NCBI GenBank assembly: GCA_000002445.1 | Contig: CM000207.1 | Coordinates: 2,368,001 to 2,432,000 of the forward strand | Direction: 5' to 3' | DNA from: Trypanosoma brucei | Taxonomy: Eukaryota | Length of the DNA: 64,000 bases | Part shown: in pieces, positions 1 through 37,439 of the stretch | Layout: every line of letters starts with the position of its first letter | Numbering within the stretch: the stretch's first letter is position 1 | Made by a program: the position numbers and the translations under genes | The notes under the pieces: generated by a model | Databases searched by the model: none | What the model saw: the letters and a program-made list of their open reading frames with translations, nothing else | Told to the model about the DNA's origin: nothing

Positions 1-579
1 CACGCTGCTGAAGCTGCGGCTTTGGCTGCAAGTAACTTGGCTTTTGCCGCTGCAAATATTGCTGCGGTGCCGTGGTCACAACCAATCAGTGATTCCATGT
101 TGCATAAACTCGCACTATGCGACCACGTCGACGAGTATGTGCGAGAGGCAGCAAAAAAGTGCACAAAGAAAGCGAAGAACGTGACGGCACAATCTCTCAA
201 TGAGGTCCTCAAAGCGTTTGAGAAGCTGTTCAGTGAAGTAAATGCCTTGCAATCCTTACGGCATAATATTGCTGAGTTCCACAAAGACCTGAAATCGTTA
301 GAGGATCACGTTGAAGACATTGTCCGTGCACAAAAAAATGCGGAAGATGCAGCTGCAGAGACAAATAAAATAGCAGCGCCTGATCATGAGGTAGGAGGTA
401 ACAAAGAAGAAACACCAAGTCAACAGCCAGACACAAATCAAGATCAACAGGCAAATGAGAAACCTGAGGCAAATCAGACAGCCGGCACAAATACGGGACC
501 ACTTGGAAATTCCGTTGCTTCACCTGAAGGGTCAGTGCTGCTACTGATGGCTGGATTGTTTCTCGGTTCTGTACTGTAA
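1..579 (+). CDS. BARP: BARP-family alanine-rich GPI-anchored surface protein, 5'-truncated by the window edge. Has a long Q/N/E-rich C-terminal linker.
   Basis: Frame open from nt 1; 'AAEAAALAASNLAFAAANIAAVPW' matches the core of the other copies. Ends with the GPI signal 'SPEGSVLLLMAGLFLGSVL'. Confidence 0.7.
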   Translation, partial: HAAEAAALAASNLAFAAANIAAVPWSQPISDSMLHKLALCDHVDEYVREAAKKCTKKAKNVTAQSLNEVLKAFEKLFSEVNALQSLRHNIAEFHKDLKSLEDHVEDIVRAQKNAEDAAAETNKIAAPDHEVGGNKEETPSQQPDTNQDQQANEKPEANQTAGTNTGPLGNSVASPEGSVLLLMAGLFLGSVL

Positions 580-1589: not shown

Positions 1590-2372
1590 ATGAGCATCAC
1601 TTTTCATAACTTATGGCTACTTTTAACAGTGTTATGCACCGCAGGTATTCGTGCTGACGCAAGTAAGGAGGAGTGTCCGGATAAGGGATCTTATCCGGCA
1701 GCCGAGGACGTACTTGTATTGTGTCGTGTGGCGGAACAACTTCGAGGGTTACCGGATACAGTGAGTTCTGCTCTTGTTAATGCCGCTACTGCTTCGAGTA
1801 AAGCATTTGAAGCAAAGGTACAAGCAGAGGAAGCTGTGGAACTTGCCGAGTCGAAAGGCCTAAACGTTACGAAAGCGAAGGAAGCTGCTGTGAGAGCAAC
1901 ACTCGCTGCTGAAGCTGCGGCTACGGCTGCAAGTAATGTGGAAATTAACGCTGCAAATATTGCTGCGGTGCCGTGGCTTGAACGAAGACAAAATGTGGGT
2001 TGGCAGAAGCTTGCGAAGTGTATAGACTTAGATATGGACATGCGGGAAGCAGCAAGGGTGTGTAGAAGGGCAGCAGACAACGTGACAGCCCAATCCCTCA
2101 CTGCGGCGCTGAAGGATTTGGAGAAGGTTTATACTGATGTGAGTACTAGAGAAGCCTTACGGAAGGAAACCGTTGAGTTCCATAAAGAGCTCGCGTCTTT
2201 AGAGGAGCATGTCGAAGAGGCTGTCCGTGCACAAAAACGGGCTGAGGATGCAGCTGCATATGCGAATCAAACAGTCGGTACAAATACGGGACCAGTTGTG
2301 AATTCCGTTGCATCACCTGAAGGGTCAGTGCTGCTACTGATAGCTGGACTGTTTCTCGGTTCTGTACTGTAA
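1590..2372 (+). CDS. BARP: BARP-family alanine-rich GPI-anchored surface protein (260 aa)
   Basis: Signal peptide MSITFHNLWLLLTVLCTAGIRA, Ala-rich invariant core 'SSKAFEAKVQAEEAVELAESKGLNVTKAKEAAVRATLAAEAAATAASNVEINAANIAAVPW', and a C-terminal hydrophobic GPI signal. Family assignment is from memory of BARP (~14-gene cluster, GPI-anchored, Ala-rich). Confidence 0.75.
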   Translation: MSITFHNLWLLLTVLCTAGIRADASKEECPDKGSYPAAEDVLVLCRVAEQLRGLPDTVSSALVNAATASSKAFEAKVQAEEAVELAESKGLNVTKAKEAAVRATLAAEAAATAASNVEINAANIAAVPWLERRQNVGWQKLAKCIDLDMDMREAARVCRRAADNVTAQSLTAALKDLEKVYTDVSTREALRKETVEFHKELASLEEHVEEAVRAQKRAEDAAAYANQTVGTNTGPVVNSVASPEGSVLLLIAGLFLGSVL

Positions 2373-3384: not shown

Positions 3385-4167
3385 ATGAGCATCACTTTTC
3401 ATAATTTATGGCTACTTTTGACAGTGTTATGCACCGCAGGTGTTCGTGCTCATCATGGCTGGACCAATTGCTACCCTGCGGGAAACAGTCCACCAGTAGA
3501 AGAGATTCGTGCGTCATGCGAAGTGGCTCACCAACTTCGAGGCCTATCACAAACAGTAACATCTGCTGTGGAAACTTCCGCTGCTGCTTCGAGTAAAGCA
3601 TTTGAAGCAAAGGTACAAGCAGAGGAAGCTGTGGAACTTGCCGAGTCAAAAGGCCTAAACGTTACGAAAGCGAAGGAAGCTGCTGTGAGAGCAACACTCG
3701 CTGCTGAAGCTGCGGCTACGGCTGCAAGTAATGTGGAAATTAACGCTGCAAATATTGCTGCGGTGCCGTGGCTTGAACGAAGACAAAATACAGGTTGGGA
3801 GGTGCTTACGAAATGCATTAACTTAGACGATGATATAAAAAAAATGGCATCAAAGTGTAAAAGTGCAGCAGAAGTTGTAACAGCCGAATCGATCAGTGCG
3901 GCGTTAAACGATTTGGGGAAGACATTTATAAATGAGAAGACTCGAGAAGCCTTACGGAAGGAAAGCGTTGAGTTCCATAAAGAGCTCGCGTCTTTAGAGG
4001 AACATGTCGAAGAGGCTGTCCGTGCACAAAAACGGGCTGAGGATGCAGCTGCAGATGCGAATCAAACAGCCGGTACAAATACGGGACCAGTTGTGAATTC
4101 CGTTGCATCACCTGAAGGGTCAGTGCTGCTACTGATGGCTGGACTGTTTCTCGGTTCTGTACTGTAA
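3385..4167 (+). CDS. BARP: BARP-family paralogue (260 aa)
   Basis: Same signal peptide, core and GPI tail. Divergent Cys-bracketed N-terminal patch 'HHGWTNCYPAGNSPPVEEIRASCEVAHQ'. Confidence 0.75.
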   Translation: MSITFHNLWLLLTVLCTAGVRAHHGWTNCYPAGNSPPVEEIRASCEVAHQLRGLSQTVTSAVETSAAASSKAFEAKVQAEEAVELAESKGLNVTKAKEAAVRATLAAEAAATAASNVEINAANIAAVPWLERRQNTGWEVLTKCINLDDDIKKMASKCKSAAEVVTAESISAALNDLGKTFINEKTREALRKESVEFHKELASLEEHVEEAVRAQKRAEDAAADANQTAGTNTGPVVNSVASPEGSVLLLMAGLFLGSVL

Positions 4168-5183: not shown

Positions 5184-6056
5184 ATGAGCATCACTTTTCA
5201 TAACTTATGGCTACTTTTGACAGTGTTATGCACTGCAGGTATTCGTGCGCACGGTGACTGGAGAGATTGCTATGCTGGTAGGAAACCCCCACCGGCAGGA
5301 CACGTACGTGTGGTGTGCAGTTTGGCGGAACAACTTCGAGGTTTACCGGATACAATAAGTTCTGCTCTTGTTACTGCCGCTGCTGCTTCGAGTAAGGCAT
5401 TTGAAGCAAAGGTACAAGCAGAGGAAGCTGTGGAACTTGCCGAGTCGAGAGGCCTAAACGTTACGAAAGCGAAGGAAGCTGCTGTGAGAGCAACACTTGC
5501 TGCTGAAGCTGCGGCTACAGCTGCAAGTAATGTGGAAATTGACGCTGCAAATGTCACTTCCTCCCGTCTGGCTCGTCGCAATCCTAACACAGGCTTTGAG
5601 AAAGTTGCTATGTGCGAAAACTTGGACAAGGATTTGCGGGAGGCGGCAGCAAAGTGCACAAAGAAAGCGGAGAACGTGACAACCCAATCACTCAGTGAGA
5701 CACTTCATAGGTTGGAGAATCTGTACACTAATATGAGTGCTCTTGAATCCTTACGGGTCGAACATGTTGAAATTGAACGCTTTTTTGAGATGCTCGAAGA
5801 ACACGTGGAGGAGGCTGTCCGTGCACAAAGACAAGCTGAGGAAGCAGCTGCCGAGGCAATTAAAATAGTAGCTGCTGATGAGGAGGTGAGAGGATACAAA
5901 AAGGAAGAAATTAATCAAGTAGCAGGGACAAAAAAAGGTCATGAGGCAAATCAAACAACCGGCACAAATACGGGACCAGTTGTGAATTCCGTTGCATCAC
6001 CTGAAGGGTCAGTGCTGCTACTGATGGCTGGACTGTTTCTCGGTTCTGTACTGTAA
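5184..6056 (+). CDS. BARP: BARP-family paralogue (290 aa) with C-terminal linker insertion
   Basis: Conserved signal, core and GPI tail. Extra block 'EAIKIVAADEEVRGYKKEEINQVAGTKKGHEANQTTGTNTGP' before the GPI signal. Confidence 0.75.
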   Translation: MSITFHNLWLLLTVLCTAGIRAHGDWRDCYAGRKPPPAGHVRVVCSLAEQLRGLPDTISSALVTAAAASSKAFEAKVQAEEAVELAESRGLNVTKAKEAAVRATLAAEAAATAASNVEIDAANVTSSRLARRNPNTGFEKVAMCENLDKDLREAAAKCTKKAENVTTQSLSETLHRLENLYTNMSALESLRVEHVEIERFFEMLEEHVEEAVRAQRQAEEAAAEAIKIVAADEEVRGYKKEEINQVAGTKKGHEANQTTGTNTGPVVNSVASPEGSVLLLMAGLFLGSVL

Positions 6057-7074: not shown

Positions 7075-7947
7075 ATGAGCATCACTTTTAATAATTTATG
7101 GCTACTTTTGACAGTGTTATGCACCGCAGGTATTCGTGCTCATCATGTCTGGAATGATTGCTTTGCCGATGGAAGCTATCCACCACTAGAAGGTATACCC
7201 GCATTGTGTGGTGTGGCGGAACAACTTCGAGGTTTACCGGATACAATAAGTTCTGCTCTTGTTAATGTCGCTACTGCTTCGAGTAAAGCATTTGAAGCAA
7301 AGGTACAAGCAGAGGAAGCTGTGGAACTTGCCGAGTCGAAAGGCCTAAACGTTACGAAAGCGAAGGAAGCTGCTGTGAGAGCAACACTCGCTGCTGAAGC
7401 TGCGGCTACGGCTGCAAGTAATGTGGAAATTAACGCTGCAAATATTGCTGCGGTGCCGTGGTCACAAAGGAGACAGGATGCGGGGTTGCAAAAAGTTGCA
7501 CTATGCGACAATGTGGACAAGGATGTACGAGAGGCGGCAGCAAAGTGCACAAAGAAAGCGGAGAACGTGACAGCTGAATCTCTCCGTGCGGCACTAGAAG
7601 CGTTGGAGAATCTTGTTACTGATGTTAAATTCCAAGAAAATTTACGGAAGGAAGATGTCGAATTTCACACGGAGCTGAAATCATTAGAGGATCACGTGGA
7701 GGAGGCTGTCCGTGCACAAAGACAAGCTGAGGAAGCAGCTGCCGAGGCAATTAAAATAGTAGCTGCTGATGAGGAGGTGAGAGGATACAAAAAGGAAGAA
7801 ATTAATCAAGTAGCAGGGACAAAAAAAGGTCATGAGGCAAATCAAACAACCGGCACAAATACGGGACCAGTTGTGAATTCCGTTGCATCACCTGAAGGGT
7901 CAGTGCTGCTACTGATGGCTGGACTGTTTCTCGGTTCTGTACTGTAA
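7075..7947 (+). CDS. BARP: BARP-family paralogue (290 aa) with the same C-terminal linker insertion
   Basis: Same architecture. Linker identical to the gene at 5184. Confidence 0.75.
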   Translation: MSITFNNLWLLLTVLCTAGIRAHHVWNDCFADGSYPPLEGIPALCGVAEQLRGLPDTISSALVNVATASSKAFEAKVQAEEAVELAESKGLNVTKAKEAAVRATLAAEAAATAASNVEINAANIAAVPWSQRRQDAGLQKVALCDNVDKDVREAAAKCTKKAENVTAESLRAALEALENLVTDVKFQENLRKEDVEFHTELKSLEDHVEEAVRAQRQAEEAAAEAIKIVAADEEVRGYKKEEINQVAGTKKGHEANQTTGTNTGPVVNSVASPEGSVLLLMAGLFLGSVL

Positions 7948-8961: not shown

Positions 8962-9729
8962 ATGAGCATCACTTTTCATAACTTATGGCTACTTTTAACA
9001 GTGTTATGCACCGCAGGTATTCGTGCTGACGCAAGTAAGGAGGAGTGTCCGGATAAGGGATCTTATCCGGCAGCCGAGGACGTACTTGTATTGTGTCGTG
9101 TGGCGGAACAACTTCGAGGGTTACCGGATACAGTGAGTTCTGCTCTTGTTAATGCCGCTACTGCTTCGAGTAAAGCATTTGAAGCAAAGGTACAAGCAGA
9201 GGAAGCTGTGGAACTTGCCGAGTCAAAAGGCCTAAACGTTACGAAAGCGAAGGAAGCTGCTGTGAGAGCAACACTCGCTGCTGAAGCTGCGGCTACGGCT
9301 GTGAGCTATGCGAATGCGCACGGCACGAAAGTTGGATCGATGACAGAAATACTTTGGGAGGCGGATGAAGAGTTGCGTGAACTTGTAGTGTGTAAGAGAA
9401 TGGATGAAGAAACAATAAAAGCTGCTGCAGAGTGTACGGGCACAGCGGAAGTTGTAACAGCCCAATCACTCAGTGAGGCACTAGAGGCATTGGCTAATCT
9501 ACACTATGGTGATGAAAACGTTGCTGAAACCCTACGACGGAAAGATGTTGTGTTCCACAAAGAGCTGAAATCACTCGAAGGTTACGTGGAGGAGGCTGTT
9601 CATGCACAAAAACAGGCTGAGGATGCAGCTGCAGATGCCAATCAAGTAGCTACTGGAAATTCCGTCGCATCGCCTGAAAAGTCAGTGCTGCTACTGATGG
9701 CTGGATTGTTTCTCAGTTCTGTACTGTAA
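8962..9729 (+). CDS. BARP: BARP-family paralogue (255 aa), 'AVSYANAHGTKVGS' subtype
   Basis: Conserved signal and core up to 'AAEAAATA', then a distinct C-terminal half ('VSYANAHGTKVGSMTEILWEADEELRELVVCKRMDEE'). The GPI tail has LFLSSVL instead of LFLGSVL. Confidence 0.75.
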   Translation: MSITFHNLWLLLTVLCTAGIRADASKEECPDKGSYPAAEDVLVLCRVAEQLRGLPDTVSSALVNAATASSKAFEAKVQAEEAVELAESKGLNVTKAKEAAVRATLAAEAAATAVSYANAHGTKVGSMTEILWEADEELRELVVCKRMDEETIKAAAECTGTAEVVTAQSLSEALEALANLHYGDENVAETLRRKDVVFHKELKSLEGYVEEAVHAQKQAEDAAADANQVATGNSVASPEKSVLLLMAGLFLSSVL

Positions 9730-10742: not shown

Positions 10743-11579
10743 ATGAGCATCACTTTTAATAATTTATGGCTACTTTTGACAGTGTTATGCACTGCAGGTA
10801 TTCGTGCGCACGGTGACTGGAGAGATTGCTATGCTGCTAGGAAACCCCCACCGGCAGGACACGTACGTGTGGTGTGCAATTTGGCGGAACAACTTCGAGG
10901 GTTACCGGATACAGTAAGTTCTGCTCTTGTTAATGCCGCTGCTGCTTCGAGTAAAGCATTTGAAGCAAAGGTACAAGCAGAGGAAGCTGTGGAACTTGCC
11001 GAGTCGAGAGGCCTAAACGTTACGAAAGCGAAGGAAGCTGCTGTGAGAGCAACACTCGCTGCTGAAGCTGCGGCTACGGCTGCAAGTAATGTGGAAATTA
11101 ACGCTGCAAATGTCACTTCCTCGCGTTTGGCTCGTCGCAACCCTAACACAGGCTTTGAGAAAATTGCTATGTGCGAAAACTTGGACGAGGATGTACGAGA
11201 GGCAGCAGTAAAGTGTACAAAGAAAGCGGAGAACGTGACAACCCAATCTCTCAATGAAGCACTTCATAGGTTGGAGAATCTGTACACTAATATGAGTGCT
11301 CTTGAATCCTTACGGGTTGAACATGTTGAAATTGAACGCTTTTTTGAGATGCTCGAAGAACACGTAGAGGAGGCTGTGAGTGCACAAAGACAAGCTGAGG
11401 ATGCAGCTGCCGAGGCAATTAAAATAGCAGCTGCTGATGAGAAGGTGAGAGGATACAAAAAGGAAGAAATAAATCAAACAGCCGGCCCAAATACGGGACC
11501 AGTTGTGAATTCCGTTGCATCACCTGAAGGGTCGGTGCTGCTACTGATGGCTGGACTGTTTCTCGGTTCTGTACTGTAA
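10743..11579 (+). CDS. BARP: BARP-family paralogue (278 aa), shorter linker variant
   Basis: N-terminal patch almost identical to the gene at 5184 ('HGDWRDCYA.RKPPPAGHVRVVC'). Linker 'EAIKIAAADEKVRGYKKEEINQTAGPNTGP'. Confidence 0.75.
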   Translation: MSITFNNLWLLLTVLCTAGIRAHGDWRDCYAARKPPPAGHVRVVCNLAEQLRGLPDTVSSALVNAAAASSKAFEAKVQAEEAVELAESRGLNVTKAKEAAVRATLAAEAAATAASNVEINAANVTSSRLARRNPNTGFEKIAMCENLDEDVREAAVKCTKKAENVTTQSLNEALHRLENLYTNMSALESLRVEHVEIERFFEMLEEHVEEAVSAQRQAEDAAAEAIKIAAADEKVRGYKKEEINQTAGPNTGPVVNSVASPEGSVLLLMAGLFLGSVL

Positions 11580-12594: not shown

Positions 12595-13362
12595 ATGAGC
12601 ATCACTTTTCATAACTTATGGCTACTTTTAACAGTGTTATGCACCGCAGGTATTCGTGCTGACGCAAGTAAGGAGGAGTGTCCGGATAAGGGCTCTTATC
12701 CGGCAGCCGAGGACGTACTTGTATTGTGTCACGTTGCGGAGCAACTTCGAGGGTTACCGGATACAGTGAGTTCTGCTCTTGTTACTGCTGCTGCTGCTTC
12801 GAGTAAAGCATTTGAAGCAAAGGTACAAGCAGAGGAAGCTGTGGAACTTGCCGAGTCGAGAGGCCTAAACGTTACGAAAGCGAAGGAAGCTGCTGTGAGA
12901 GCAACACTCGCTGCTGAAGCTGCGGCTACGGCTGTGAGCTATGCGAATGCGCACGGCACGAAAGTTGGATCGATGACAGAAATACTTTGGGAGGCGGATG
13001 AAGAGTTGCGTGAACTTGTAGTGTGTAAGAGAATGGATGAAGAAACAATAAAAGCTGCTGCAGAGTGTACGGGCACAGCGGAAGTTGTAACAGCCCAATC
13101 ACTCAGTGAGGCACTAGAGGCATTGGCTAATCTACACTATGGTGATGAAAACGTTGCTGAAACCCTACGACGGAAAGATGTTGTGTTCCACAAAGAGCTG
13201 AAATCACTCGAAGGTTACGTGGAGGAGGCTGTTCATGCACAAAAACAGGCTGAGGATGCAGCTGCAGATGCCAATCAAGTAGCTACTGGAAATTCCGTCG
13301 CATCACCTGAAAAGTCAGTGCTGCTACTGATGGCTGGACTGTTTCTCGGTTCTGTACTGTAA
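12595..13362 (+). CDS. BARP: BARP-family paralogue (255 aa), near-identical to 8962-9729
   Basis: Differs from the copy at 8962 by only a handful of residues (R→H, N→T, K→R, S→G). Confidence 0.75.
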   Translation: MSITFHNLWLLLTVLCTAGIRADASKEECPDKGSYPAAEDVLVLCHVAEQLRGLPDTVSSALVTAAAASSKAFEAKVQAEEAVELAESRGLNVTKAKEAAVRATLAAEAAATAVSYANAHGTKVGSMTEILWEADEELRELVVCKRMDEETIKAAAECTGTAEVVTAQSLSEALEALANLHYGDENVAETLRRKDVVFHKELKSLEGYVEEAVHAQKQAEDAAADANQVATGNSVASPEKSVLLLMAGLFLGSVL

Positions 13363-14381: not shown

Positions 14382-15362
14382 ATGAGCATCACTTTTCATA
14401 ATTTATGGCTACTTTTGACAGTGTTATGCACTGCAGGTATTCGTGCTGACCCAAGTAAGGAGGAGTGTCCGGATTTGGGAGGTTATCCATCAGCTGACGA
14501 CGTACTTGTATTGTGTTATTTGGCGGAACAACTTCGAGGGTTACCGGATACAATAAGTTCTGCTCTTGTTAATGCCGCTGCTGCTTCGAGTAAAGCATTT
14601 GAAGCAAAGGTACAAGCAGAGGAAGCTGTGGAACTTGCCGAGTCGAAAGGCCTAAACGTTACGAAAGCGAAGGAAGCTGCTGTGAGAGCAACACTCGCTG
14701 CTGAAGCTGCGGCCACGGCTGCAAGTAATGTGGAAATTAACGCTGCAAATATTTCTGCTTTCTCTATTGATTTTTTGGAGAGTGCGAACTTGTTGCTGTT
14801 TGAAGTTAGGGACGCAAAAGATGTTGGTGAAGACGTGAGAATCGTGGCGCAAAGGTGCACGGGTGAAGCGAACTTTGTTACGGTTGCTTCTCTAACCAAT
14901 GCACTGGATAATGTTACTTCTCTGTACTCCGTGTATGGTAAAGGCACGGCTTCTTTGAGTATGGAAAGTGTTGCCCTTTTGGAGGAGCTGAAGATGTTGG
15001 AAGATGGCTTGAAGAAGTCACAGGTTGCTGTTTCGGTGGCGGCTGACGCAGCAGACCAGTCGAAACTATTGGTAGATGCAGTTGAAGTATCGGGCAATAC
15101 TGCCAAAGGGGCTGTCAATAACCATAATACCGCAAATAATGAAAGCAACAAAGCAACAAGAAATAAAGATCAAGATGAAGGTAGAACAGTCGGAAACAAC
15201 GACAAGGAATTTACTATAACTTCTGAGGATTATACGAAGAAAAACCAAGGAGAAAACGGGGACCTGAGCTCGATTACCCTTACAGAAGATAGCGGAAGTT
15301 CTTTTATCGCTAAATATCCCTTTCACCTGTGTACCATATTCACTTTCTATACACTTCTATGA
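14382..15362 (+). CDS. Aberrant BARP-family member (326 aa): conserved N-half, divergent C-half, canonical GPI signal lost
   Basis: Identical signal peptide and core up to 'NVEINAANI'. After that the sequence is unique, with an N/K/D/T-rich tail ending 'SSFIAKYPFHLCTIFTFYTLL'. The canonical post-stop element is missing and ~180 nt of unique 3' flank follows (15363-15545). Confidence 0.6.
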   Translation: MSITFHNLWLLLTVLCTAGIRADPSKEECPDLGGYPSADDVLVLCYLAEQLRGLPDTISSALVNAAAASSKAFEAKVQAEEAVELAESKGLNVTKAKEAAVRATLAAEAAATAASNVEINAANISAFSIDFLESANLLLFEVRDAKDVGEDVRIVAQRCTGEANFVTVASLTNALDNVTSLYSVYGKGTASLSMESVALLEELKMLEDGLKKSQVAVSVAADAADQSKLLVDAVEVSGNTAKGAVNNHNTANNESNKATRNKDQDEGRTVGNNDKEFTITSEDYTKKNQGENGDLSSITLTEDSGSSFIAKYPFHLCTIFTFYTLL

Positions 15363-16321: not shown

Positions 16322-17104
16322 ATGAGCATCACTTTTAATAATTTATGGCTACTTTTGACAGTGTTATGCACTTCAGGTATTCGTGCTCATCATGTCTGGA
16401 ATGATTGCTTTGCTGATGGAAACCATCCACCTGTAGATGAGATTCCCGTCTTGTGTCGTGTGGCGGAACAACTTCGAGGTTTACCGGATACAATAAGTTC
16501 TGCTGTGGAAACTGCCGCTGCTGCTTCGAGTAAAGCATTTGAAGCAAAGGTACAAGCAGAGGAAGCTGTGGAACTTGCCGAGTCGAAAGGCCTAAACGTT
16601 ACGAAAGCGAAGGAAGCTGCTGTGAGAGCAACACTCGCTGCTGAAGCTGCGGCTACGGCTGCAAGTAATGTGGAAATTAACGCTGCAAATATTGCTGCGG
16701 TGCCGTGGTCACAACGAAGACAGGATGTGGGGTTACAGGAACTTGCACTATGCGACAATGTGGACAAGGATGTACGAGAGGCGGCAGCAAAGTGTACAAA
16801 GAAAGCGGACAACGTGACAGCCCAATCGCTCAGTGCGGCACTAGAAGCGTTGGAGAATTTATACACTGATGTGAATACCCGGGAGACCTTGCGGCGGGAA
16901 GATGTTGAGTTTCACACGGAGCTGAAATCGTTAGAGGAACATGTGGAGGAGGCTGTCCGTGCACAAAAACAAGCTGAGGATGCAGCTGCAGATGCAATTA
17001 AAATAGCCGGTACAAATACGGGACCAGTTGTGAATTCCGTTGCATCACCTGAAGGGTCGGTGCTGCTACTGATGGCTGGATTGTTTCTCGGTTCTGTACT
17101 GTAA
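16322..17104 (+). CDS. BARP: BARP-family paralogue (260 aa)
   Basis: Conserved signal, core and GPI tail. Confidence 0.75.
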   Translation: MSITFNNLWLLLTVLCTSGIRAHHVWNDCFADGNHPPVDEIPVLCRVAEQLRGLPDTISSAVETAAAASSKAFEAKVQAEEAVELAESKGLNVTKAKEAAVRATLAAEAAATAASNVEINAANIAAVPWSQRRQDVGLQELALCDNVDKDVREAAAKCTKKADNVTAQSLSAALEALENLYTDVNTRETLRREDVEFHTELKSLEEHVEEAVRAQKQAEDAAADAIKIAGTNTGPVVNSVASPEGSVLLLMAGLFLGSVL

Positions 17105-18117: not shown

Positions 18118-18900
18118 ATGAGCATCACTTTTCATAACTTATGGCTACTTTTGACAGTGTTATGCACTGCAGGTATTCGTGCTGACTATATCTGGAACAA
18201 CTGCTCTGTTGAAAACAGTCATCCTCCGCTGGAAGAAATACGTGTCTTGTGTCGTGTGGCGGAACAGCTTCGAGGGTTACCGGAGACAGTAAGTTCTGCT
18301 GTGGAAACTGCCGCTGCTGCTTCGAGTAAAGCATTTGAAGCAAAGGTACAAGCAGAGGAAGCTGTGGAACTTGCCGAGTCGAGAGGTCTAAACGTTACGA
18401 AAGCAAAGGAAGCTGCTGTGAGAGCAACACTCGCTGCTGAAGCTGCGGCCACGGCTGCAAGTAATGTGGAAATTAACGCTGCAAATATTGCTGCGGTGCC
18501 GTGGTTACAACCAATCTCTGATGCAGGTTTGGAAAACCTTTCTAAATGCGAGCACATAGACAAGTATGTGCAGGAGGCGGCAGCAGAGTGCTCAAAGAAA
18601 GCAGAACATGTGACGGCTCAATCGCTTAGTGCGGCACTGGAAGGGTTGGAGAATCTATTCACTGATGTGAGTACTAGGGAAGCCTTACGGAAGGAAACCA
18701 TTGAGTTTCACACTGAGCTGAAATCGTTAGAGGAACATGTCGAAGAGGCTGTCCGTGCACAAAAACGGGCTGAGGATGCAGCTGCATATGCGAATCAAAC
18801 AGTCGGTACAAATACGGGACCAGTTGGAAATTCTGTTGCATCACCTGAAGGGTCAGTGCTGCTACTGATGGCTGGACTGTTTCTCGGTTCTGTACTGTAA
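18118..18900 (+). CDS. BARP: BARP-family paralogue (260 aa)
   Basis: Conserved signal, core and GPI tail. Confidence 0.75.
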   Translation: MSITFHNLWLLLTVLCTAGIRADYIWNNCSVENSHPPLEEIRVLCRVAEQLRGLPETVSSAVETAAAASSKAFEAKVQAEEAVELAESRGLNVTKAKEAAVRATLAAEAAATAASNVEINAANIAAVPWLQPISDAGLENLSKCEHIDKYVQEAAAECSKKAEHVTAQSLSAALEGLENLFTDVSTREALRKETIEFHTELKSLEEHVEEAVRAQKRAEDAAAYANQTVGTNTGPVGNSVASPEGSVLLLMAGLFLGSVL

Positions 18901-19913: not shown

Positions 19914-20678
19914 ATGAGCATCACTTTTCATAACTTATGGCTACTTTTGACAGTGTTATGCACTGCAGGTATTCGTGCTGACGATATCTGGAACGACTGC
20001 CTTGCCAGCAGTAATGGTCCACCACTGAAACACATAGAAGTGTTATGTAATTTGGCGGAACAACTTCGAGGTTTACCGGATACAGTAAGTTCTGCTGTGA
20101 TTTCTGTAACGGAAGCATCTATAAAGGCCTCGAAAGCAAAGGTACAAGCAGAGGAAGCTGTGGAACTTGCCGAGTCGAAAGGCCTAAACGTTACGAAAGC
20201 GAAGGAAGCTGCTGTGAGAGCAACACTCGCTGCTGAAGCTGCGGCTACGGCTGCAAGTAATGTGGAAATTAACGCTGCAAATATTGCTGAACTTCCTTGG
20301 TCTCAAAGGAGGAGAGACGCTGGTTTGCAGAATATTGAACACTGCAAAAATTTGGATAAGGATGTACGAGAGGCAGCAGTAAAGTGTACAAAGAAAGCGG
20401 AGAACGTGACAGCCGATTCTCTCCGTGCGGCACTGGAAGGGTTGGAAACATTGTTCAGCGACGTTTACATACTAGTAACGTTGCGGAAGGAAAAAGTTGA
20501 GATGCAGGAAGAAATGCAATCGTTAGAACAAAACGCAGCGACAGTCCTTCGTGTACTTCAAAAGGCTGAGGATGCAGCAGCTGATGCAAATCGAGAAGCC
20601 CTTGGAAATTCCGTTGCATCACCTGAAGGCTCGGTGCTGCTACTGATGGCTGGATTGTTTCTCGGTTCTGTACTGTAA
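19914..20678 (+). CDS. BARP: BARP-family paralogue (254 aa), most divergent core and C-terminus
   Basis: Signal and GPI tail conserved. Core 'SAVISVTEASIKASKAKVQ' and C-half 'MQEEMQSLEQNAATVLRVLQKAEDAAADANREALGNS' diverge from the rest. Confidence 0.7.
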   Translation: MSITFHNLWLLLTVLCTAGIRADDIWNDCLASSNGPPLKHIEVLCNLAEQLRGLPDTVSSAVISVTEASIKASKAKVQAEEAVELAESKGLNVTKAKEAAVRATLAAEAAATAASNVEINAANIAELPWSQRRRDAGLQNIEHCKNLDKDVREAAVKCTKKAENVTADSLRAALEGLETLFSDVYILVTLRKEKVEMQEEMQSLEQNAATVLRVLQKAEDAAADANREALGNSVASPEGSVLLLMAGLFLGSVL

Positions 20679-21688: not shown

Positions 21689-22474
21689 ATGAGCATCACT
21701 TTTCATAATTTATGGCTACTTTTGACAGTGTTATGCACTGCAGGTATTCGTGGTGATCGAGTCTGGTACGATTGTCCAGAAAAAGGAGTGGACACATCGC
21801 GGGACGACATACAAGCTTTGTGCCGTGCAGCGGAGCAGTTCAGAGGCCTATCACAAACAGTAACATCTGCTGTGGAAACTTCCGCGGCTGCTTCAAGTAA
21901 AGCATTTGAAGCAAAGGTACAAGCAGAGGAAGCTGTGGAACTTGCCGAGTCGAGAGGCCTAAACGTTACGAAAGCGAAGGAAGCTGCTGTGAGAGCAACA
22001 CTCGCTGCTGAAGCTGCGGCCACGGCTGCAAGTAATGTGGAAATTGACGCTGCAAATATTGCTGCGGTGCCGTGGTCACAACCAAGCAGTGATGCAGGTT
22101 TACAAAAGCTGGCACTTTGTGAAAACATCGACAAGAGTTTACGACAGTTGGCATCAAAGTGCTCGAAGAGAGCGGAAAACGTGACGGCCCAATCGCTCAG
22201 TGAGGCGTTGGAGGGACTAAGAAAACTACACTACAATGATGTATACGTTAAGGAAATATTAGAGAGAGAAGATGTTGAGTTCCACAAAGAGTTTATGTGG
22301 TTACAGCACCACCTCCGGGAGGCTGTCCGTGCACAAAAACAGGCTGAGGATGCAGCTGCAGAGGCGAATGAAATAGCCGGCACAAATACGGGACCAGTTG
22401 GAAATTCCGTTGCATCACCTGAAGGGTCAGTGCTGCTACTGATGGCTGGACTGTTTCTCGGTTCTGTACTGTAA
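21689..22474 (+). CDS. BARP: BARP-family paralogue (261 aa)
   Basis: Conserved signal, core and GPI tail. Confidence 0.75.
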   Translation: MSITFHNLWLLLTVLCTAGIRGDRVWYDCPEKGVDTSRDDIQALCRAAEQFRGLSQTVTSAVETSAAASSKAFEAKVQAEEAVELAESRGLNVTKAKEAAVRATLAAEAAATAASNVEIDAANIAAVPWSQPSSDAGLQKLALCENIDKSLRQLASKCSKRAENVTAQSLSEALEGLRKLHYNDVYVKEILEREDVEFHKEFMWLQHHLREAVRAQKQAEDAAAEANEIAGTNTGPVGNSVASPEGSVLLLMAGLFLGSVL

Positions 22475-23486: not shown

Positions 23487-24269
23487 ATGAGCATCACTTT
23501 TCATAACTTATGGCTACTTTTGACAGTGTTATGCACTGCAGGTATTCGTGCTGACGATATCTTGAATAATTGCTCTGCTGGTAGGAAACCCCCACCGGCA
23601 GTATACGTAACTGCCTTGTGTCGTGTGGCGGAACAACTTCGAGGGTTAGGAGGGACTATTAGTTCCTCTCTTCTTACTGTAACTTCCGCGTCAAGTAAAG
23701 CATTCAAAGCAAAGGTACAAGCAGAGAAGGCTGTGAAACTTGCCGAGTCGAGAGGCCTAAACGTTACGAAAGCGAAGGAAGCTGCTGTGAGAGCAACACT
23801 CGCTGCTGAAGCTGCGGCCACGGCTGTGAGCTATTGTATTACCCATTCTACGAAAGTTGGGTCAATTGCAGAGATGCTATGGGAGGTAGATGAGGAGCTG
23901 CATGTTTTTTCGTTATGTGGTAACAAAGACAGGGATGTACAAGATACGGCATTAAAGTGTACTGATACAGCGGAAGGTGTAACAGCCCAATCGCTCAGTG
24001 AGGCGCTAGAAGGGTTAGCTAAATTAGTTTTTGACGACAACGTTGCTAGAAAGTTGCGGCAGGAAGATACTGTGTTCCAGAGAGAATTTATGTGGTTACA
24101 GCAGCACATGGAGGAGGCTGTCCGTGCACAAAAACAAGCTGAGGATGCAGCTGCAGATGCAAATGAAACAGCCGGCCCAAATACGGGACCAGTTGTGAAT
24201 TCTGTTGCATCACCTGAAGGGTCAGTGCTGCTACTGATGGCTGGACTGTTTCTCGGTTCTGTACTGTAA
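23487..24269 (+). CDS. BARP: BARP-family paralogue (260 aa), last in the array, 'AVSYCITHSTKVGS' subtype
   Basis: Core has K-for-E changes ('AFKAKVQAEKAVKLAESRG'). C-half is related to the 8962/12595 subtype. The downstream spacer is degenerate. Confidence 0.72.
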   Translation: MSITFHNLWLLLTVLCTAGIRADDILNNCSAGRKPPPAVYVTALCRVAEQLRGLGGTISSSLLTVTSASSKAFKAKVQAEKAVKLAESRGLNVTKAKEAAVRATLAAEAAATAVSYCITHSTKVGSIAEMLWEVDEELHVFSLCGNKDRDVQDTALKCTDTAEGVTAQSLSEALEGLAKLVFDDNVARKLRQEDTVFQREFMWLQQHMEEAVRAQKQAEDAAADANETAGPNTGPVVNSVASPEGSVLLLMAGLFLGSVL

Positions 24270-25446: not shown

Positions 25447-26487
25447 ATGCACTCATGTTGGATTGGTTCGCTGTTACTACTAGTGGGACTTATGTTTTTT
25501 AGTATTGTTTGCCGAGCAAATGGAACGGAAGTGAAGCCGCTGGAAGAAAGTGCAGAGGATATTTGTGCGGCCATGAAGTCCCTTAATACCGTAAATAACA
25601 CTGTACAAAATATTATTACCACCATACGCAATCACAAGGCGAAATTGATACGCTATCTCCAGGATGTAGAGACGGCATTTGAAAGGACGAGTAGCGCAGC
25701 CGCTGCAGCGAAACAATACGGGGGAACCTTCCGAACTGCGTCGGTGGCATCAAAAATTGCGAATGACGCAATGTCCAACTCCACGCGGGCCATGTTGGAT
25801 GCTGAAACGAGTCACAACACGACTCTTATTATTGAGGCGGCGGCGAATATTGAAGCACAGAGCGCGAGAGACAACGCAACTGCCGCCGCTGTGGCACTTC
25901 AGGCGATATGGAAAACGACAGTTGGCACTGCCAGACTTCAAGCGAACCATACGGATTGTGTGTATACACCAGCTGATCAGATGTTGACGTCCCAGAAGCT
26001 GAATGAGCACAAAGAGAAGCTGGTGGTAACAGATAGCAAATATAATGATGAACACAAGGAGTTGAAGGAGCTTTGGGCGCGGAGTTATCTGAAGCTCTTC
26101 CTCCCGCTCGACCAGCTCCATATGTTATTGCAAAAGTTGGAATGGGATGTTGCCACAACGTCAGAGATGGAAACCACTGCAGAAAAGGCAGCTGATGCAG
26201 CAGTAGCGGCGCAAGAGGATGTTGAGAAGGCGGCAGAGTTGGCGGCGGAGAGTGCGACAGAATCTGTACGGGCAAAACGATACTCTGATCGTGTCGCAAG
26301 AGGGAATATGAAATTTAAAACCATCGCAGGATTTCATGAGGAACCTCTACCCGAGGTCGTCCCTCGTCCCGGGGCAAAGGCATCTGCCGCGTCCGATCCA
26401 TTGGAAAATGAAGACGGCGCTTTTTATGTGTCCAGGGGAATAATGCCGCTCAGTCAAGCTTTTTTCGTAATTGCGTTTACCATATAA
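25447..26487 (+). CDS. Alanine-rich secreted/GPI-type protein (346 aa), possible distant BARP/GARP-like (Fam50-like) relative
   Basis: N-terminal signal peptide 'MHSCWIGSLLLLVGLMFFSIVCRANG'. Ala/Glu-rich helical-looking stretches ('AEKAADAAVAAQEDVEKAAELAAESATESV' cf. BARP 'VEEAVRAQKQAEDAAADA'). Several NxT/S sites. C-terminal hydrophobic tail 'GIMPLSQAFFVIAFTI'. Preceded by a T-rich tract at 25150-25400. Confidence 0.6.
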   Translation: MHSCWIGSLLLLVGLMFFSIVCRANGTEVKPLEESAEDICAAMKSLNTVNNTVQNIITTIRNHKAKLIRYLQDVETAFERTSSAAAAAKQYGGTFRTASVASKIANDAMSNSTRAMLDAETSHNTTLIIEAAANIEAQSARDNATAAAVALQAIWKTTVGTARLQANHTDCVYTPADQMLTSQKLNEHKEKLVVTDSKYNDEHKELKELWARSYLKLFLPLDQLHMLLQKLEWDVATTSEMETTAEKAADAAVAAQEDVEKAAELAAESATESVRAKRYSDRVARGNMKFKTIAGFHEEPLPEVVPRPGAKASAASDPLENEDGAFYVSRGIMPLSQAFFVIAFTI

Positions 26488-36203: not shown

Positions 36204-37439
36204 ATGAGAACGATCCTCACCACATTAGGGTTATTGTTAGGCGTCACGCAGTACTCTGTGGGTGTCCCTGGAGCTGCCCTCAGCGTTGCAGCCGCTAGAA
36301 TAGTGTGCGAAGCGGCTATGGAACTTGGGAGAGCCGAATCTTATATCTCGATGAAACTGCGCGAAACGCGCGACTTGATCGAGTCCTTGAAAGTTGCTCG
36401 CAGACTCCTTGATGGCAAACTGCAGCGGGACAGACCCATCGGGGAGGAGTGCCTGAACGCAGTTAAGCTTATCGCTCACGCAGATGGTCTGGGTCGCAAA
36501 CTAGAGTCGCAATATTATGAGTTGGAGAGGATAGGGTTCAAAACCGCCTCCAAGTCCCGGCTGGCCTCCGGGAGACTCCACGAATTTATTTTAGTGTTTT
36601 CCCAGTGGCACGACGGCGAGGGCAGATGCATTGCCAACGGGGACGAGGAGGGCGACACACAGGGTGAAGTCACGCTGCGCCGTTGTATGAGCAGTTTGGT
36701 TAACGGAAGCTACGAAGACGGTGGCGGTGGCGTCCATCACAACTTCCCGCGTTATCTGAGGGAATCATTTCAGAATCTTTTTACGCTAGATGAGGATGTA
36801 TCGCTGAACAAGGATAATGGATGTCCTCTGACAAGGTGGAAAGTCATCCACAACGCAACGGCAAATGCCACGGGACGGAGTGGGGCCGCGGAAGATGTTA
36901 GGTGGGCAGGTGGGCTCCTTATTGTCACAGGTAACGGCCCCAGATGGATTTCAGACATTGAAGGGGTCCCGATGCTATCCAAAACGAAAACTAGCCTTGG
37001 AAAATTTGTGTCGATGTCCAGTAAAATTACCAGTGCCTTCAGTAATTTTATGGGAATAGTTTGGGCAGACAACCCGTGGTTGGTGAACAGCAGTGAAGTG
37101 GACAGTCTGATCGTGGGTGTTGACCTCTACATCTTTATGCACCCTTCCAGGGACTTCCAGATCAATGAAAGGGACCTAGACCGCCTGACAAAAACTTATT
37201 GTGGCGAACCCCTCCCCGCTCACGTGCGGCTCAGCGACAAAGTTGCTGACGGAAGGGACGGAAATAGTGACGTCTCGCCTCGCGGCCCTGTAGTCCCCGC
37301 AAACATATCTGAAACCAATACGATTTTCGGTAGCGATGATGACGATGAAGATTACAATGGTTTAACGGAGGTTAAGGCTGGGACCGAGCTTCTGTCGTTG
37401 TTGTTTCCCCTCGTGGCAATAAACCTTTTTCTTGTCTGA
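36204..37439 (+). CDS. GPI-anchored surface protein of the ESAG6/7-PAG (transferrin-receptor-like) lineage, 412 aa from the second Met
   Basis: Signal peptide 'MRTILTTLGLLLGVTQYSVG'. Motif 'ASGRLHEFILVFSQWHDGEGRCI' closely resembles ESAG6 'AAGRLEEWIFVFAQAAGRSSQFCI' (from memory). C-terminal GPI-type tail 'GTELLSLLFPLVAINLFLV'. The ORF-track start at 36132 lies inside the upstream polypyrimidine tract (36135-36198), so 36204 is the more likely start. Confidence 0.7.
   Translation: MRTILTTLGLLLGVTQYSVGVPGAALSVAAARIVCEAAMELGRAESYISMKLRETRDLIESLKVARRLLDGKLQRDRPIGEECLNAVKLIAHADGLGRKLESQYYELERIGFKTASKSRLASGRLHEFILVFSQWHDGEGRCIANGDEEGDTQGEVTLRRCMSSLVNGSYEDGGGGVHHNFPRYLRESFQNLFTLDEDVSLNKDNGCPLTRWKVIHNATANATGRSGAAEDVRWAGGLLIVTGNGPRWISDIEGVPMLSKTKTSLGKFVSMSSKITSAFSNFMGIVWADNPWLVNSSEVDSLIVGVDLYIFMHPSRDFQINERDLDRLTKTYCGEPLPAHVRLSDKVADGRDGNSDVSPRGPVVPANISETNTIFGSDDDDEDYNGLTEVKAGTELLSLLFPLVAINLFLV

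What the first reader, a model, noticed from the sequence alone, without database searches (positions are those of the whole stretch)
1656..1740. Hypervariable Cys-bracketed patch immediately after the BARP signal peptide, flanked by invariant sequence
Across the 13 complete paralogues, residues ~23-50 are highly variable: 'DASKEECPDKGSYPAAEDVLVLC', 'HHGWTNCYPAGNSPPVEEIRASC', 'HGDWRDCYAGRKPPPAGHVRVVC', 'DYIWNNCSVENSHPPLEEIRVLC', 'DDIWNDCLASSNGPPLKHIEVLC', 'GDRVWYDCPEKGVDTSRDDIQALC', 'DDILNNCSAGRKPPPAVYVTALC'. The two Cys (spacing ~14-17) and a central Pro-Pro stay fixed. The following ~80 residues are almost invariant at the nucleotide level. A disulfide-bounded hypervariable loop on a constant scaffold, in a tandem array, points to diversifying selection on an exposed epitope or ligand-binding loop. 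A few distinct loop types recur across the array (for example the gene 2/6/8/9 type and the gene 4/7 type), which implies loop swapping by gene conversion.
Basis: seen in the sequence. Interest (0 to 1): 0.55.

Follow-up and report, generated by a model that had tools for sequence, protein, structure and literature searches.

The report
Variable N-terminal tip of BARP coat proteins
The first 23 residues of the mature BARP surface protein of Trypanosoma brucei really do differ sharply between the tandem gene copies, but this reflects old sequence types that escaped the array's homogenisation and are shuffled by recombination, not detectable positive selection.

Summary
The window is the T. b. 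brucei TREU927 chromosome 9 BARP array: 13 complete copies plus one partial copy (Pfam GARP, E=2.6e-72). The patch is real. Codons 23-45 (window 1656-1724 in copy 1) have 58 of 69 variable sites, against 23 of 195 in the signal peptide plus codons 71-113 (Fisher p=3e-28). Both Cys are invariant and there are no indels.

Several details in the finding are wrong. Cys spacing is always 16. Pro-Pro is not fixed. Only codons 71-113 are near-invariant. A second, larger variable block (codons 114-228) exists, so there is no constant scaffold.

Positive selection is not supported:
- Synonymous divergence is saturated and exceeds non-synonymous divergence (pS 0.64, pN 0.38).
- ML M0 gives omega 0.51 (<1, p=0.0008).
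- M2a adds nothing over M1a (2ΔlnL=0), although simulations show 92% power.
- Patch types are nearly identical across T. brucei subspecies.

The invariance of the flanks is concerted evolution, because 700 nt of upstream non-coding DNA is equally invariant. Recombination is confirmed, and the constant block acts as the crossover hinge. By homology the patch sits at the membrane-distal tip. The two Cys probably bond to the head (Cys45-Cys158, Cys29-Cys144) rather than to each other. The gene family and its array behaviour are already known, so interest is modest.

The parts
1590..1655 (+). Signal peptide of BARP copy g1 (codons 1-22). It is homogenised across copies.
   Evidence: pS 0.11, pN 0.017. 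The cleavage site after Ala22 is inferred from the sequence (IRA|D/H), not predicted with a tool.
1656..1724 (+). The variable patch of g1: codons 23-45, the first 23 residues of the mature protein. Residues 23-28 are predicted disordered, residues 29-37 form a coil, and residues 38-45 are the first two turns of helix I.
   Evidence: for diversity and site counts. for AF2 secondary structure and pLDDT.
1674..1676 (+). Cys29 codon. It is invariant in all copies and is present only in BARP and GARP among the Fam50 members examined.
1722..1724 (+). Cys45 codon. It is invariant and lies inside helix I. It aligns with MISP360 Cys36 and with the N-terminal Cys of FHR and GARP.
   Evidence: and (the paper's description of the Cys36-Cys157 disulphide).
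1725..1799 (+). Moderately variable shoulder (codons 46-70, upper part of helix I).
   Evidence: diversity 0.16-0.23, pS 0.30, pN 0.17.
1800..1928 (+). Near-invariant block (codons 71-113: lower helix I, the turn with the NVT sequon, lower helix II). It acts as the recombination hinge between the 5' and 3' variable modules.
   Evidence: pS 0.065. One search places breakpoints of the g1/g5 and g1/g2 similarity at this block; the peptide KVQAEEAVELAESK is described as fully conserved across isoforms.
1929..2273 (+). Second, larger variable block (codons 114-228: upper helix II, the head helices and the last long helix).
   Evidence: pS 0.56, pN 0.31.
2019..2021 (+). Cys144 codon, the inferred disulphide partner of Cys29. 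It is missing only in the aberrant copy g8.
   Evidence: The pairing is inferred from phyletic co-occurrence.
2061..2063 (+). Cys158 codon. This is the cysteine found throughout Fam50, followed by the VTxxSL motif, and it is the homology-inferred partner of Cys45.
3451..3519 (+). Patch of g2 (HHGWTNC... type).
5250..5318 (+). Patch of g3 (HGDWRDC... type, shared with g6).
7141..7209 (+). Patch of g4 (HHVWNDC... type, related to g9).
9028..9096 (+). Patch of g5 (identical at the nucleotide level to g1).
10809..10877 (+). Patch of g6 (1 nt different from g3).
12661..12729 (+). Patch of g7 (1 nt different from g1 and g5).
14448..14516 (+). Patch of g8 (DPSKEEC..., 9 nt different from g1). g8 is the aberrant copy.
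16388..16456 (+). Patch of g9.
18184..18252 (+). Patch of g10.
19980..20048 (+). Patch of g11.
21755..21823 (+). Patch of g12 (DRVWYDCPEKGVDTSR..., which lacks the prolines).
23553..23621 (+). Patch of g13. It is a mosaic: the 5' end resembles g11 and a central 26-nt tract is identical to g3.

Best explanation
What it is. The patch is the first 23 residues of mature BARP, the GPI-anchored, alanine-rich three-helix-bundle coat protein of T. brucei salivary-gland epimastigotes.

Structure. By homology it lies at the membrane-distal tip. Residues 23-28 form a flexible tail, residues 29-37 form a Pro-containing strap, and residues 38-45 are the first two turns of helix I. The two invariant cysteines most likely pin this segment to the head through Cys45-Cys158 (a pair present throughout the family and seen in the MISP crystal) and Cys29-Cys144 (a pair specific to BARP and GARP). 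They probably do not bond to each other.

Why it looks hypervariable. The contrast with the flanks comes from mosaic concerted evolution. Gene conversion or unequal crossing-over keeps four parts of every unit nearly identical: the upstream intergenic/5'UTR DNA, the signal peptide, codons 71-113 and the GPI signal. The patch and the larger block at codons 114-228 persist as old, synonymously saturated sequence types, about nine for the patch. These types are copied whole (g1=g5=g7, g3=g6) and recombined as modules, with the constant block as the crossover hinge.

Selection within the patch. About one third of sites are constrained: the two Cys, Pro36, the hydrophobic positions 41, 43 and 44, and the fixed length. 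The remaining sites evolve at roughly the neutral rate. There is no detectable positive selection.

Shown versus inferred. Shown here: the diversity pattern, the saturation, omega, the recombination, conservation of types between subspecies, and the fold. Inferred: the disulphide pairing, the exposure, and why the islands escape homogenisation. That escape could be selection for a mixed coat, suppression of conversion by mismatches, or both.
For: Identity.
- Pfam GARP E=2.6e-72.
- Several copies are identical to TREU927 BARP entries.
- Foldseek top hits are 2Y44 GARP, 6XZ6 FHR and 5VTL MISP.

Mosaic homogenisation.
- The upstream 700 nt of non-coding DNA has diversity 0-0.04, like codons 71-113. 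The patch has 0.41-0.48 and the second variable block (codons 114-228, var2) 0.23-0.52.
- pS is 0.065 in codons 71-113 against 0.635 in the patch.

Age of the types.
- Among-BARP patch dN is 0.53, against 0.88 for BARP versus GARP.
- The types are nearly unchanged in T. b. gambiense and T. b. equiperdum.

No positive selection.
- Region-wide dN/dS is 0.38-0.55.
- Within-type omega is 0.45, p=0.014 below neutral.
- ML M0 gives omega 0.51 (p=0.0008 against omega=1). M1a puts 36% of sites at omega 0.19 and 64% at omega 1. The M2a LRT is 0.
- Simulated power is 11/12, with 0/12 false positives.

Recombination and modules.
- PHI p=0.0005 for the CDS and 0.0075 for the patch.
- Segment nearest neighbours are discordant, and the Mantel correlation between patch and var2 distances is weak, r=0.21.
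- Similarity breakpoints fall at the constant block.

Structure.
- AF2 of the mature domain has pLDDT 82.7. Residues 23-28 are below 50, and helix I starts at residue 38.
- BARP Cys45 and Cys158 align to MISP Cys36 and Cys157, which are disulphide-bonded in 5VTL.
- Cys29 and Cys144 are present together in BARP and GARP and absent together in FHR, MISP and other Fam50 representatives.
- The FHR N-terminus is membrane-distal and lies next to the binding site.

Prior literature agrees.
- BARP CDS distance is 0.335 against 0.073 and 0.038 for the UTRs.
- The array is listed with 14 against 13 copies and a statistic of p<0.001 in the T. b. gambiense genome paper's table of tandem arrays. I read this as its recombination test.
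Against: - The syntenic GARP array of T. congolense is homogenised throughout, patch included. So conversion can erase such islands. Their long persistence in T. brucei suggests some diversity-preserving force that dN/dS tests cannot detect.
- Synonymous sites are saturated, which limits the region-wide estimates.
- The ML test is my own implementation, on an NJ topology with recombination inside the data.
- The disulphide pairing and the exposure were not measured. The tools return no model coordinates, and the GARP structure paper was not available.
- Variability along helix I shows no significant alpha-helical periodicity (p=0.77). So there is no independent sequence evidence that the variable residues face the solvent.
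Confidence: 0.7

Rival explanations
1. The patch is an exposed epitope or ligand-binding loop under ongoing diversifying (positive) selection, for example from host antibodies at the bite site or from tsetse factors. New variants are favoured and spread by gene conversion.
For: - The location is membrane-distal by homology.
- In FHR the region next to the mature N-terminus contributes to ligand binding.
- About nine types are maintained, while the sister GARP array is uniform.
- One within-type cluster of 4 non-synonymous and 0-1 synonymous changes occurs at residues 24-27, ASKE to PNNG.
Against: - dN is below dS at every scale tested.
- The M2a versus M1a LRT is 0, despite 92% simulated power for omega 2.5-3.
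- The types are nearly identical across subspecies.
- BARP is mainly expressed in the tsetse salivary gland, and all copies are up-regulated together there rather than one at a time. This does not fit classical antigenic variation.
Confidence: 0.12
2. This is purely neutral drift in a dispensable, unstructured N-terminal tail. The patch has no function of its own. It diverged by drift, and its divergence now mechanically blocks gene conversion, so it simply remains different.
For: - M1a assigns 64% of patch sites to omega=1.
- Residues 23-28 have pLDDT below 50.
- Crystallised constructs of relatives start near the Cys45 equivalent.
- Only whole-island copying is seen between otherwise similar units.
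Against: - There are no indels in 23 codons across 21 distinct sequences, despite about 45% nucleotide divergence.
- Cys29, Pro36, Cys45 and the hydrophobic positions 41, 43 and 44 are conserved.
- The C-x15-C module with Pro at +7 is conserved in T. congolense GARP.
- Overall omega is significantly below 1.
- Drift alone should lose types over time, as in the GARP array.
Confidence: 0.15
3. The pattern is an artefact of assembly or alignment in a repetitive array, such as collapsed or chimeric copies.
For: Tandem arrays are prone to mis-assembly. The T. b. gambiense assembly of this locus contains four runs of N.
Against: - All 13 ORFs are intact and in frame with identical patch length.
- Several window proteins are identical to deposited TREU927 proteins.
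- The same patch types occur in two independently assembled genomes and in older cDNA-derived entries (O60946, Q306G3).
Confidence: 0.02

Closest known systems
T. congolense GARP (glutamic acid/alanine-rich protein; PDB 2Y44; Pfam PF16731)
   Same: - Same family, at E=7.6e-28 with the profile, and same fold.
- Same syntenic tandem array, followed by a receptor adenylate cyclase.
- Same N-terminal C-x15-C module with Pro at +7.
- Same four ectodomain cysteines.
   Different: The five GARP copies in IL3000 are nearly identical over their whole length (diversity at most 0.02, patch included). BARP copies carry two deeply divergent islands. The crystallised GARP construct starts after the Cys29 equivalent.
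T. brucei factor H receptor FHR (PDB 6XZ6), a GARP-fold receptor
   Same: It has the same three-helix bundle and the Cys45 and Cys158 equivalents. Its mature N-terminus is membrane-distal. The region near the N-terminus is conserved among orthologues, and mutation and cross-linking implicate it in ligand binding.
   Different: - It is a single-copy receptor expressed mainly in the mammalian-to-tsetse transition.
- It has no N-terminal Cys29/Cys144 strap.
- Its N-terminal region is conserved rather than variable.
- No ligand is known for BARP.
T. brucei MISP family (PDB 5VTL)
   Same: It has the same fold, is co-expressed with BARP, and forms a tandem family of five isoforms. Its head is stapled by a Cys36-Cys157 disulphide equivalent to BARP Cys45-Cys158. 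About half of the non-conserved residues among isoforms lie close to an apical pocket.
   Different: MISP isoforms differ mostly in C-terminal length. MISP lacks the extra N-terminal strap and the Cys29/Cys144 pair. Its second disulphide (Cys177-Cys185) is not present in BARP.
Mosaic concerted evolution in T. brucei tandem gene arrays (Jackson 2007; T. b. gambiense genome paper 2010)
   Same: BARP is explicitly listed as array Tb93, with CDS distance 0.335 against UTR distances of 0.073 and 0.038. The later paper lists copy-number differences between subspecies and a statistic of p<0.001, which I read as its recombination test. This is the same phenomenon measured here.
   Different: The passages I read do not resolve the variation into a discrete 23-codon N-terminal island, a 43-codon hinge and a 3' block. 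They also do not map these onto the structure.
VSG N-terminal domain surface variation
   Same: Both are GPI-anchored helical-bundle coat proteins of the same organism, with variation concentrated away from the membrane and mosaic formation by segmental gene conversion. This comparison rests on established knowledge and was not tested here.
   Different: VSGs are expressed one at a time from a very large archive for antibody evasion. All BARP copies are up-regulated together in the insect salivary gland, and the repertoire is about nine patch types.

Membership tests
BARP/GARP family (Pfam PF16731; Fam50 of the trypanosome cell-surface phylome) | Significant match to the GARP domain model above the curated cut-off | tested here: met
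   242.8 bits against a cut-off of 27.4, E=2.6e-72. The aberrant g8 also matches (E=1.4e-61).
BARP/GARP family (Pfam PF16731; Fam50 of the trypanosome cell-surface phylome) | Elongated three-helix bundle with a small membrane-distal head | tested here: met
   AF2 models (long helices at residues 38-88, 94-125 and 184-231 plus short head helices). Foldseek top hits are 2Y44, 6XZ6 and 5VTL, followed by HpHbR.
BARP/GARP family (Pfam PF16731; Fam50 of the trypanosome cell-surface phylome) | Ubiquitous cysteine followed a few residues later by a VTxxSL motif (Jackson 2013) | tested here: met
   Cys158 followed by NVTAQSL in g1. C158, V165, T166 and S169 are invariant in the 22-sequence alignment and L170 is nearly invariant. 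The motif is described.
BARP/GARP family (Pfam PF16731; Fam50 of the trypanosome cell-surface phylome) | N-terminal signal peptide and C-terminal GPI-addition signal | tested here: inconclusive
   Hydrophobic N- and C-termini are visible in the sequence, and the proteins are identical to entries annotated as BARP. No signal-peptide or GPI predictor was available.
BARP/GARP family (Pfam PF16731; Fam50 of the trypanosome cell-surface phylome) | Tandem array on T. brucei chromosome 9 (Tb927.9.15510-15640), identical to reference BARP proteins | tested here: met
   g2, g6, g7, g9, g10 and g11 are identical to TREU927 BARP entries, on a 3.06-Mb contig.
BARP/GARP family (Pfam PF16731; Fam50 of the trypanosome cell-surface phylome) | Expression on salivary-gland epimastigotes | not testable with these tools
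   Literature only.
Hypervariable region under diversifying (positive) selection | Non-synonymous rate exceeds synonymous rate at a class of sites | tested here: not met
   omega is 0.4-0.55, the M2a versus M1a LRT is 0, and simulated power is 92%.
Hypervariable region under diversifying (positive) selection | Rapid turnover between closely related strains | tested here: not met
   there are 0-2 amino-acid differences per type between subspecies for six types, and 4 for one type.
Hypervariable region under diversifying (positive) selection | Solvent-exposed position on the native protein | tested here: inconclusive
   The membrane-distal position rests on homology and on a low-confidence coil in AF2. 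No coordinates were available, and the helical periodicity test was negative.
Mosaic concerted evolution of a tandem array (segmental gene conversion or unequal crossing-over) | Non-coding spacers homogenised as strongly as the conserved coding segments | tested here: met
   upstream 700 nt has diversity 0-0.04; pS is 0.065 in codons 71-113.
Mosaic concerted evolution of a tandem array (segmental gene conversion or unequal crossing-over) | Statistical evidence of recombination and discordant relationships between segments | tested here: met
   (PHI p=0.0005). (nearest neighbours and breakpoints).
Disulphide-closed loop (Cys29-Cys45) | The two flanking cysteines are bonded to each other | tested here: inconclusive
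   Homology argues against it. Cys45 and Cys158 align to the bonded Cys36 and Cys157 of MISP, and Cys29 co-occurs with Cys144. No coordinates or experimental mapping were available.

The most novel reading that the evidence does not exclude
The N-terminal strap and the variable head/helix block may together form a germline-encoded, combinatorial recognition surface at the tip of a co-expressed coat. About nine patch modules and several head modules would be kept apart from array homogenisation by long-term balancing selection. They would be re-assorted through a dedicated constant 'hinge', so that each parasite displays a mixture of BARP tips able to engage different tsetse salivary-gland or host ligands. 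This would parallel the way FHR uses the same region to bind factor H.
Probability: 0.15. Interest if true: 0.6.

Novelty: already known. Interest (0 to 1): 0.27.

Why it matters
BARP is the major coat protein of the T. brucei stage that attaches in the tsetse salivary gland, and its function is unknown. Three results are useful for designing experiments:
- Paralogue differences are concentrated at the membrane-distal tip, in the N-terminal strap and the head.
- These modules are old, stable across subspecies and recombined through a constant hinge.
- They are not under detectable positive selection.

In practice, this helps with choosing isoform-specific or pan-BARP epitopes. The published pan-BARP antibody targets the constant hinge. 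It also supports domain-swap and ligand-screening experiments. The contrast with the fully homogenised, syntenic GARP array of T. congolense is the most interesting lead, because it suggests that something preserves diversity in T. brucei. The gene family, its fold, its array structure, the excess of coding over UTR divergence and recombination in the array have all been published already.

Tried and rejected
1. Helical periodicity of variability along helix I (residues 38-70 and 38-88). There is no significant moment at 100 degrees (p=0.77-0.78), so I do not claim from sequence that variable residues lie on one exposed face.
2. The GARP structure paper (JBC 2011; DOI and PMC3121512) and Urwyler 2007 were not available. 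GARP's disulphide description and the original account of BARP variability could therefore not be read.
3. Cys-Cys distances from the AF2 models. The tool returns no coordinates, so the disulphide pairing rests on homology and phyletic co-occurrence.
4. The first AF2 model, which included the signal peptide, had low confidence at residues 7-33. It was repeated on the mature domain.
5. I tested whether the downstream 346-aa ORF (25447-26487) is a divergent BARP relative. It has no Pfam match above threshold, no PDB sequence match and hhalign probability 1%. Rejected.
6. The tree-free per-codon minimum-change count is crude. It agrees with the other estimates, but I do not rely on it alone.
7. 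The g3/g13 26-nt shared tract has P=0.0013 for that pair. After correcting for about 66 pairs it is only suggestive.
8. I substituted my own GY94 M0/M1a/M2a with branch lengths fixed from M0 and checked its power by simulation.
Full report
**Identity of the locus**

The window holds a tandem array of ORFs with a period of about 1.8 kb. There are 13 complete copies, here called g1-g13, starting at 1590, 3385, 5184, 7075, 8962, 10743, 12595, 14382, 16322, 18118, 19914, 21689 and 23487. The 3' end of a 14th copy lies at 22-579.

The proteins match Pfam GARP (PF16731) at E=2.6e-72. Several are identical to T. b. brucei TREU927 proteins named BARP on a 3.06-Mb contig. The window is therefore the chromosome 9 BARP array, Tb927.9.15510-15640, whose genes are listed. 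Downstream lie a 346-aa ORF, a receptor-type adenylate cyclase and VSG-related genes.

**Check of the observation**

Base 1656 is the first base of codon 23 of g1. The signal peptide appears to end at Ala22, which is an inference from the sequence. The patch is therefore the first 23 residues of the mature protein.

- All seven quoted peptides are present.
- Nucleotide diversity is 0.41-0.48 across 1662-1721. It is 0.00-0.05 in the 700 nt upstream, the signal peptide and codons 71-113.
- 58 of 69 patch sites segregate, against 23 of 195 in the signal peptide plus codons 71-113 (Fisher p=3e-28).
- Cys29 and Cys45 are invariant, and there are no indels in 21 distinct sequences from three genomes.

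Four details in the finding need correction.

- The Cys spacing is always 16.
- Pro-Pro is not fixed. Pro36 is present in 19 of 21 distinct sequences and Pro37 in 13 of 21.
- The downstream 'invariant ~80 residues' are really a moderately variable shoulder (codons 46-70, diversity 0.16-0.23) followed by a 43-codon near-invariant block (codons 71-113).
- A second, larger variable block spans codons 114-228, with diversity up to 0.52. The 'constant scaffold' description is therefore wrong.

They are g1/g5/g7/g8 and g3/g6, and g4/g9 form a further type.

**Selection**

Nei-Gojobori estimates over all 78 pairs give pS 0.635 and pN 0.378 in the patch (dN/dS about 0.38), and 0.55 for the inter-Cys residues alone. 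The second variable block (var2) gives 0.38 and the constant block has pS of only 0.065.

Saturation weakens such averages, so I also used recent contrasts. Pooling copies of the same type within the array and between subspecies gives 13.5 synonymous and 22.5 non-synonymous changes. This corresponds to omega of about 0.45, significantly below the neutral expectation (p=0.014).

I then ran my own GY94 implementation on 21 distinct patch sequences.

- M0 gives omega 0.51, which rejects omega=1 at p=0.0008.
- M1a puts 36% of sites at omega 0.19 and 64% at omega 1.
- M2a adds nothing (2ΔlnL=0).

Simulations on the same tree show that a class with omega 2.5-3 covering 30-50% of sites is detected in 11 of 12 replicates. 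There were no false positives in 12 null replicates. Strong pervasive positive selection is rejected. Weak or episodic selection is not excluded.

**Comparison between genomes**

I fetched the T. b. gambiense DAL972 array (L001 and L002) and part of a T. b. equiperdum array (L003).

- The same patch types recur there. The g4, g9 and g12 types have identical amino-acid sequences. The g2, g3 and g13 types differ by 1-2 residues. The DASKEEC type differs by 4 residues clustered at positions 24-27.
- Copy number and order of types differ. For example, the g2 type occurs four times in T. b. gambiense.
- The first and last types of the array are the same in both.
- The g10 and g11 types were not seen, but those assemblies have gaps or were only partly fetched.

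The syntenic GARP array of T. congolense IL3000 (L004) has five copies followed by an adenylate cyclase, as in this window. It has diversity of at most 0.02 along the whole gene, patch included. Yet GARP has the same C-x15-C module with Pro at +7. The module is therefore ancestral, while the divergent islands are a T. brucei feature.

Among-BARP patch dN (0.53) is about 60% of BARP-versus-GARP dN (0.88). Synonymous sites are saturated in both comparisons. The types are deep lineages.

**Concerted evolution and recombination**

The invariance of the flanks extends through 700 nt of non-coding upstream DNA. It therefore reflects homogenisation of the repeat unit rather than protein constraint.

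- The PHI test gives p=0.0005 for the CDS and p=0.0075 within the patch.
- Nearest neighbours change from segment to segment. Patch distances correlate only weakly with var2 distances (Mantel r=0.21). The two halves of var2 correlate at r=0.54.
- g1 and g5 are identical from upstream to codon 113, then about 50-60% different. g5 and g7 share an identical var2. g1 and g2 have similar 3' parts but patches that differ by about 45%.

The constant block thus acts as the crossover hinge between two variable modules. Within the patch, g13 looks mosaic. Its 5' end resembles g11, and a 26-nt tract is identical to g3 (P=0.0013 for that pair, suggestive only after multiple-test correction).

This agrees with the literature. 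Jackson (2007) reported BARP CDS distance 0.335 against UTR distances of 0.073 and 0.038. The T. b. gambiense genome paper lists the array with 14 against 13 copies and a statistic of p<0.001, which I read as its recombination test.

**Structure**

AF2 on the mature domain gives pLDDT 82.7 and pTM 0.75. The long helices span residues 38-88, 94-125 and 184-231, with short head helices between the second and third.

Foldseek finds GARP 2Y44, FHR 6XZ6 and MISP 5VTL first, then HpHbR. In MISP and FHR the N-terminus of helix I lies in the membrane-distal cap. In FHR the region next to the mature N-terminus is involved in factor H binding.

The constant block (codons 71-113) corresponds to the membrane-proximal hairpin. 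Both variable blocks include the membrane-distal part.

**Cysteine pairing**

The profile alignment places BARP Cys45 opposite MISP Cys36, and BARP Cys158 opposite MISP Cys157. These two are disulphide-bonded in the MISP crystal. FHR and other Fam50 representatives have only these two cysteines. Cys29 and Cys144 occur together only in BARP and GARP.

I therefore infer Cys45-Cys158 and Cys29-Cys144. The patch would be a strap pinned to the head at both ends, not a closed Cys29-Cys45 loop. This is an inference, because no coordinates or experimental mapping were available.

A test for alpha-helical periodicity of variability in helix I was negative (p=0.77). Exposure therefore rests on homology.

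**Biological context**

All 13 complete BARP genes are up-regulated together in the salivary glands, and several isoforms are detected in saliva. The diversity is therefore displayed simultaneously, not one copy at a time as with VSG. BARP has no known ligand or function in the papers I read.

**Conclusion**

The best explanation is mosaic concerted evolution. Old, module-like variable islands sit at the membrane-distal end of a known coat protein. Their variable sites evolve roughly neutrally, a constrained framework comprises the two Cys, Pro36, three hydrophobic positions and the fixed length, and the islands are shuffled through a homogenised hinge.

Why the islands have resisted homogenisation in T. 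brucei but not in T. congolense is open. Selection for a mixed coat and mismatch-limited conversion are both compatible with the data. The family, fold, array behaviour and recombination are already published. The fine mapping of the N-terminal island and the probable disulphide topology are small additions.

Noticed in passing
window 22-579 (+): This is the 3' part of a 14th BARP copy. It matches the C-terminus of the 296-aa TREU927 BARP P0010, which has a long Gln/Glu/Asn-rich insert before the GPI signal. Its patch type (DFIGEEC...) is also the first copy of the T. b. gambiense array and the first BARP-like ORF found in the fetched T. b. equiperdum locus.
   Followed up: partly
window 14382-15362 (+), copy g8: This is an aberrant BARP of 326 aa. 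It lacks Cys144, and its block at codons 114-228 is about 50% different from all other copies. It has a long unrelated C-terminal extension ending in a different hydrophobic tail. The T. b. gambiense counterpart has a frameshift inside the patch and is annotated from an internal Met (P0015). It is probably Tb927.9.15590, the one isoform the MISP paper says has a C-terminal domain.
   Followed up: partly
window 25447-26487 (+): This is a 346-aa ORF with a hydrophobic N-terminus and C-terminus and a helical, Ala-rich body. It has no Pfam match above threshold and no PDB sequence match, and it is not related to BARP by hhalign. A 346-aa gene with no Pfam hit occupies the same position after the T. 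b. gambiense array (L002 18159-19199); I did not compare the two sequences. It may be an uncharacterised GPI-anchored surface protein.
   Followed up: partly
window 28157-31885 (+); L004 18180 onwards: This is a receptor-type adenylate cyclase (two periplasmic-binding-protein-like domains plus a cyclase domain, 1242 aa). The same kind of gene follows the GARP array in T. congolense, so the BARP and GARP arrays are positional orthologues.
   Followed up: partly
window 36132-37439 (+); 40372-41799, 48831-50255 and 57284-58708 (+): One ORF has a weak VSG A-type domain match. It is followed by three tandem units of about 8.45 kb, each carrying a 474-475 aa ORF with a strong VSG_B domain match (E=5e-84) and an overlapping 151-aa ORF. 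AT skew changes sign near 38 kb.
   Followed up: no
L004 (T. congolense IL3000 contig CAEQ01001962) 4519-16250: Five GARP copies with a period of about 2.74 kb differ at only six amino-acid positions in total. An independent T. congolense GARP sequence (P0016) is 83% identical overall to the IL3000 copy P0028. By eye, about 7 of the 24 patch residues differ, so between-isolate differences seem somewhat enriched in the patch there too.
   Followed up: partly
L001/L002 merged (T. b. gambiense FN554972 2064339-2100066): The T. b. gambiense array has a different composition from TREU927. The g2-type patch occurs four times, against once in TREU927. The g10 and g11 types were not found. The assembly has four runs of N, so the copy content is uncertain.
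   Followed up: partly
window codon 92 of each copy (g1: 1863-1871): An invariant N-V-T glycosylation sequon sits in the turn between helices I and II, at the membrane-proximal end. A second NVT sequon, after Cys158, is present in most copies but not all (g2, g5 and g7 have VVT).
   Followed up: no
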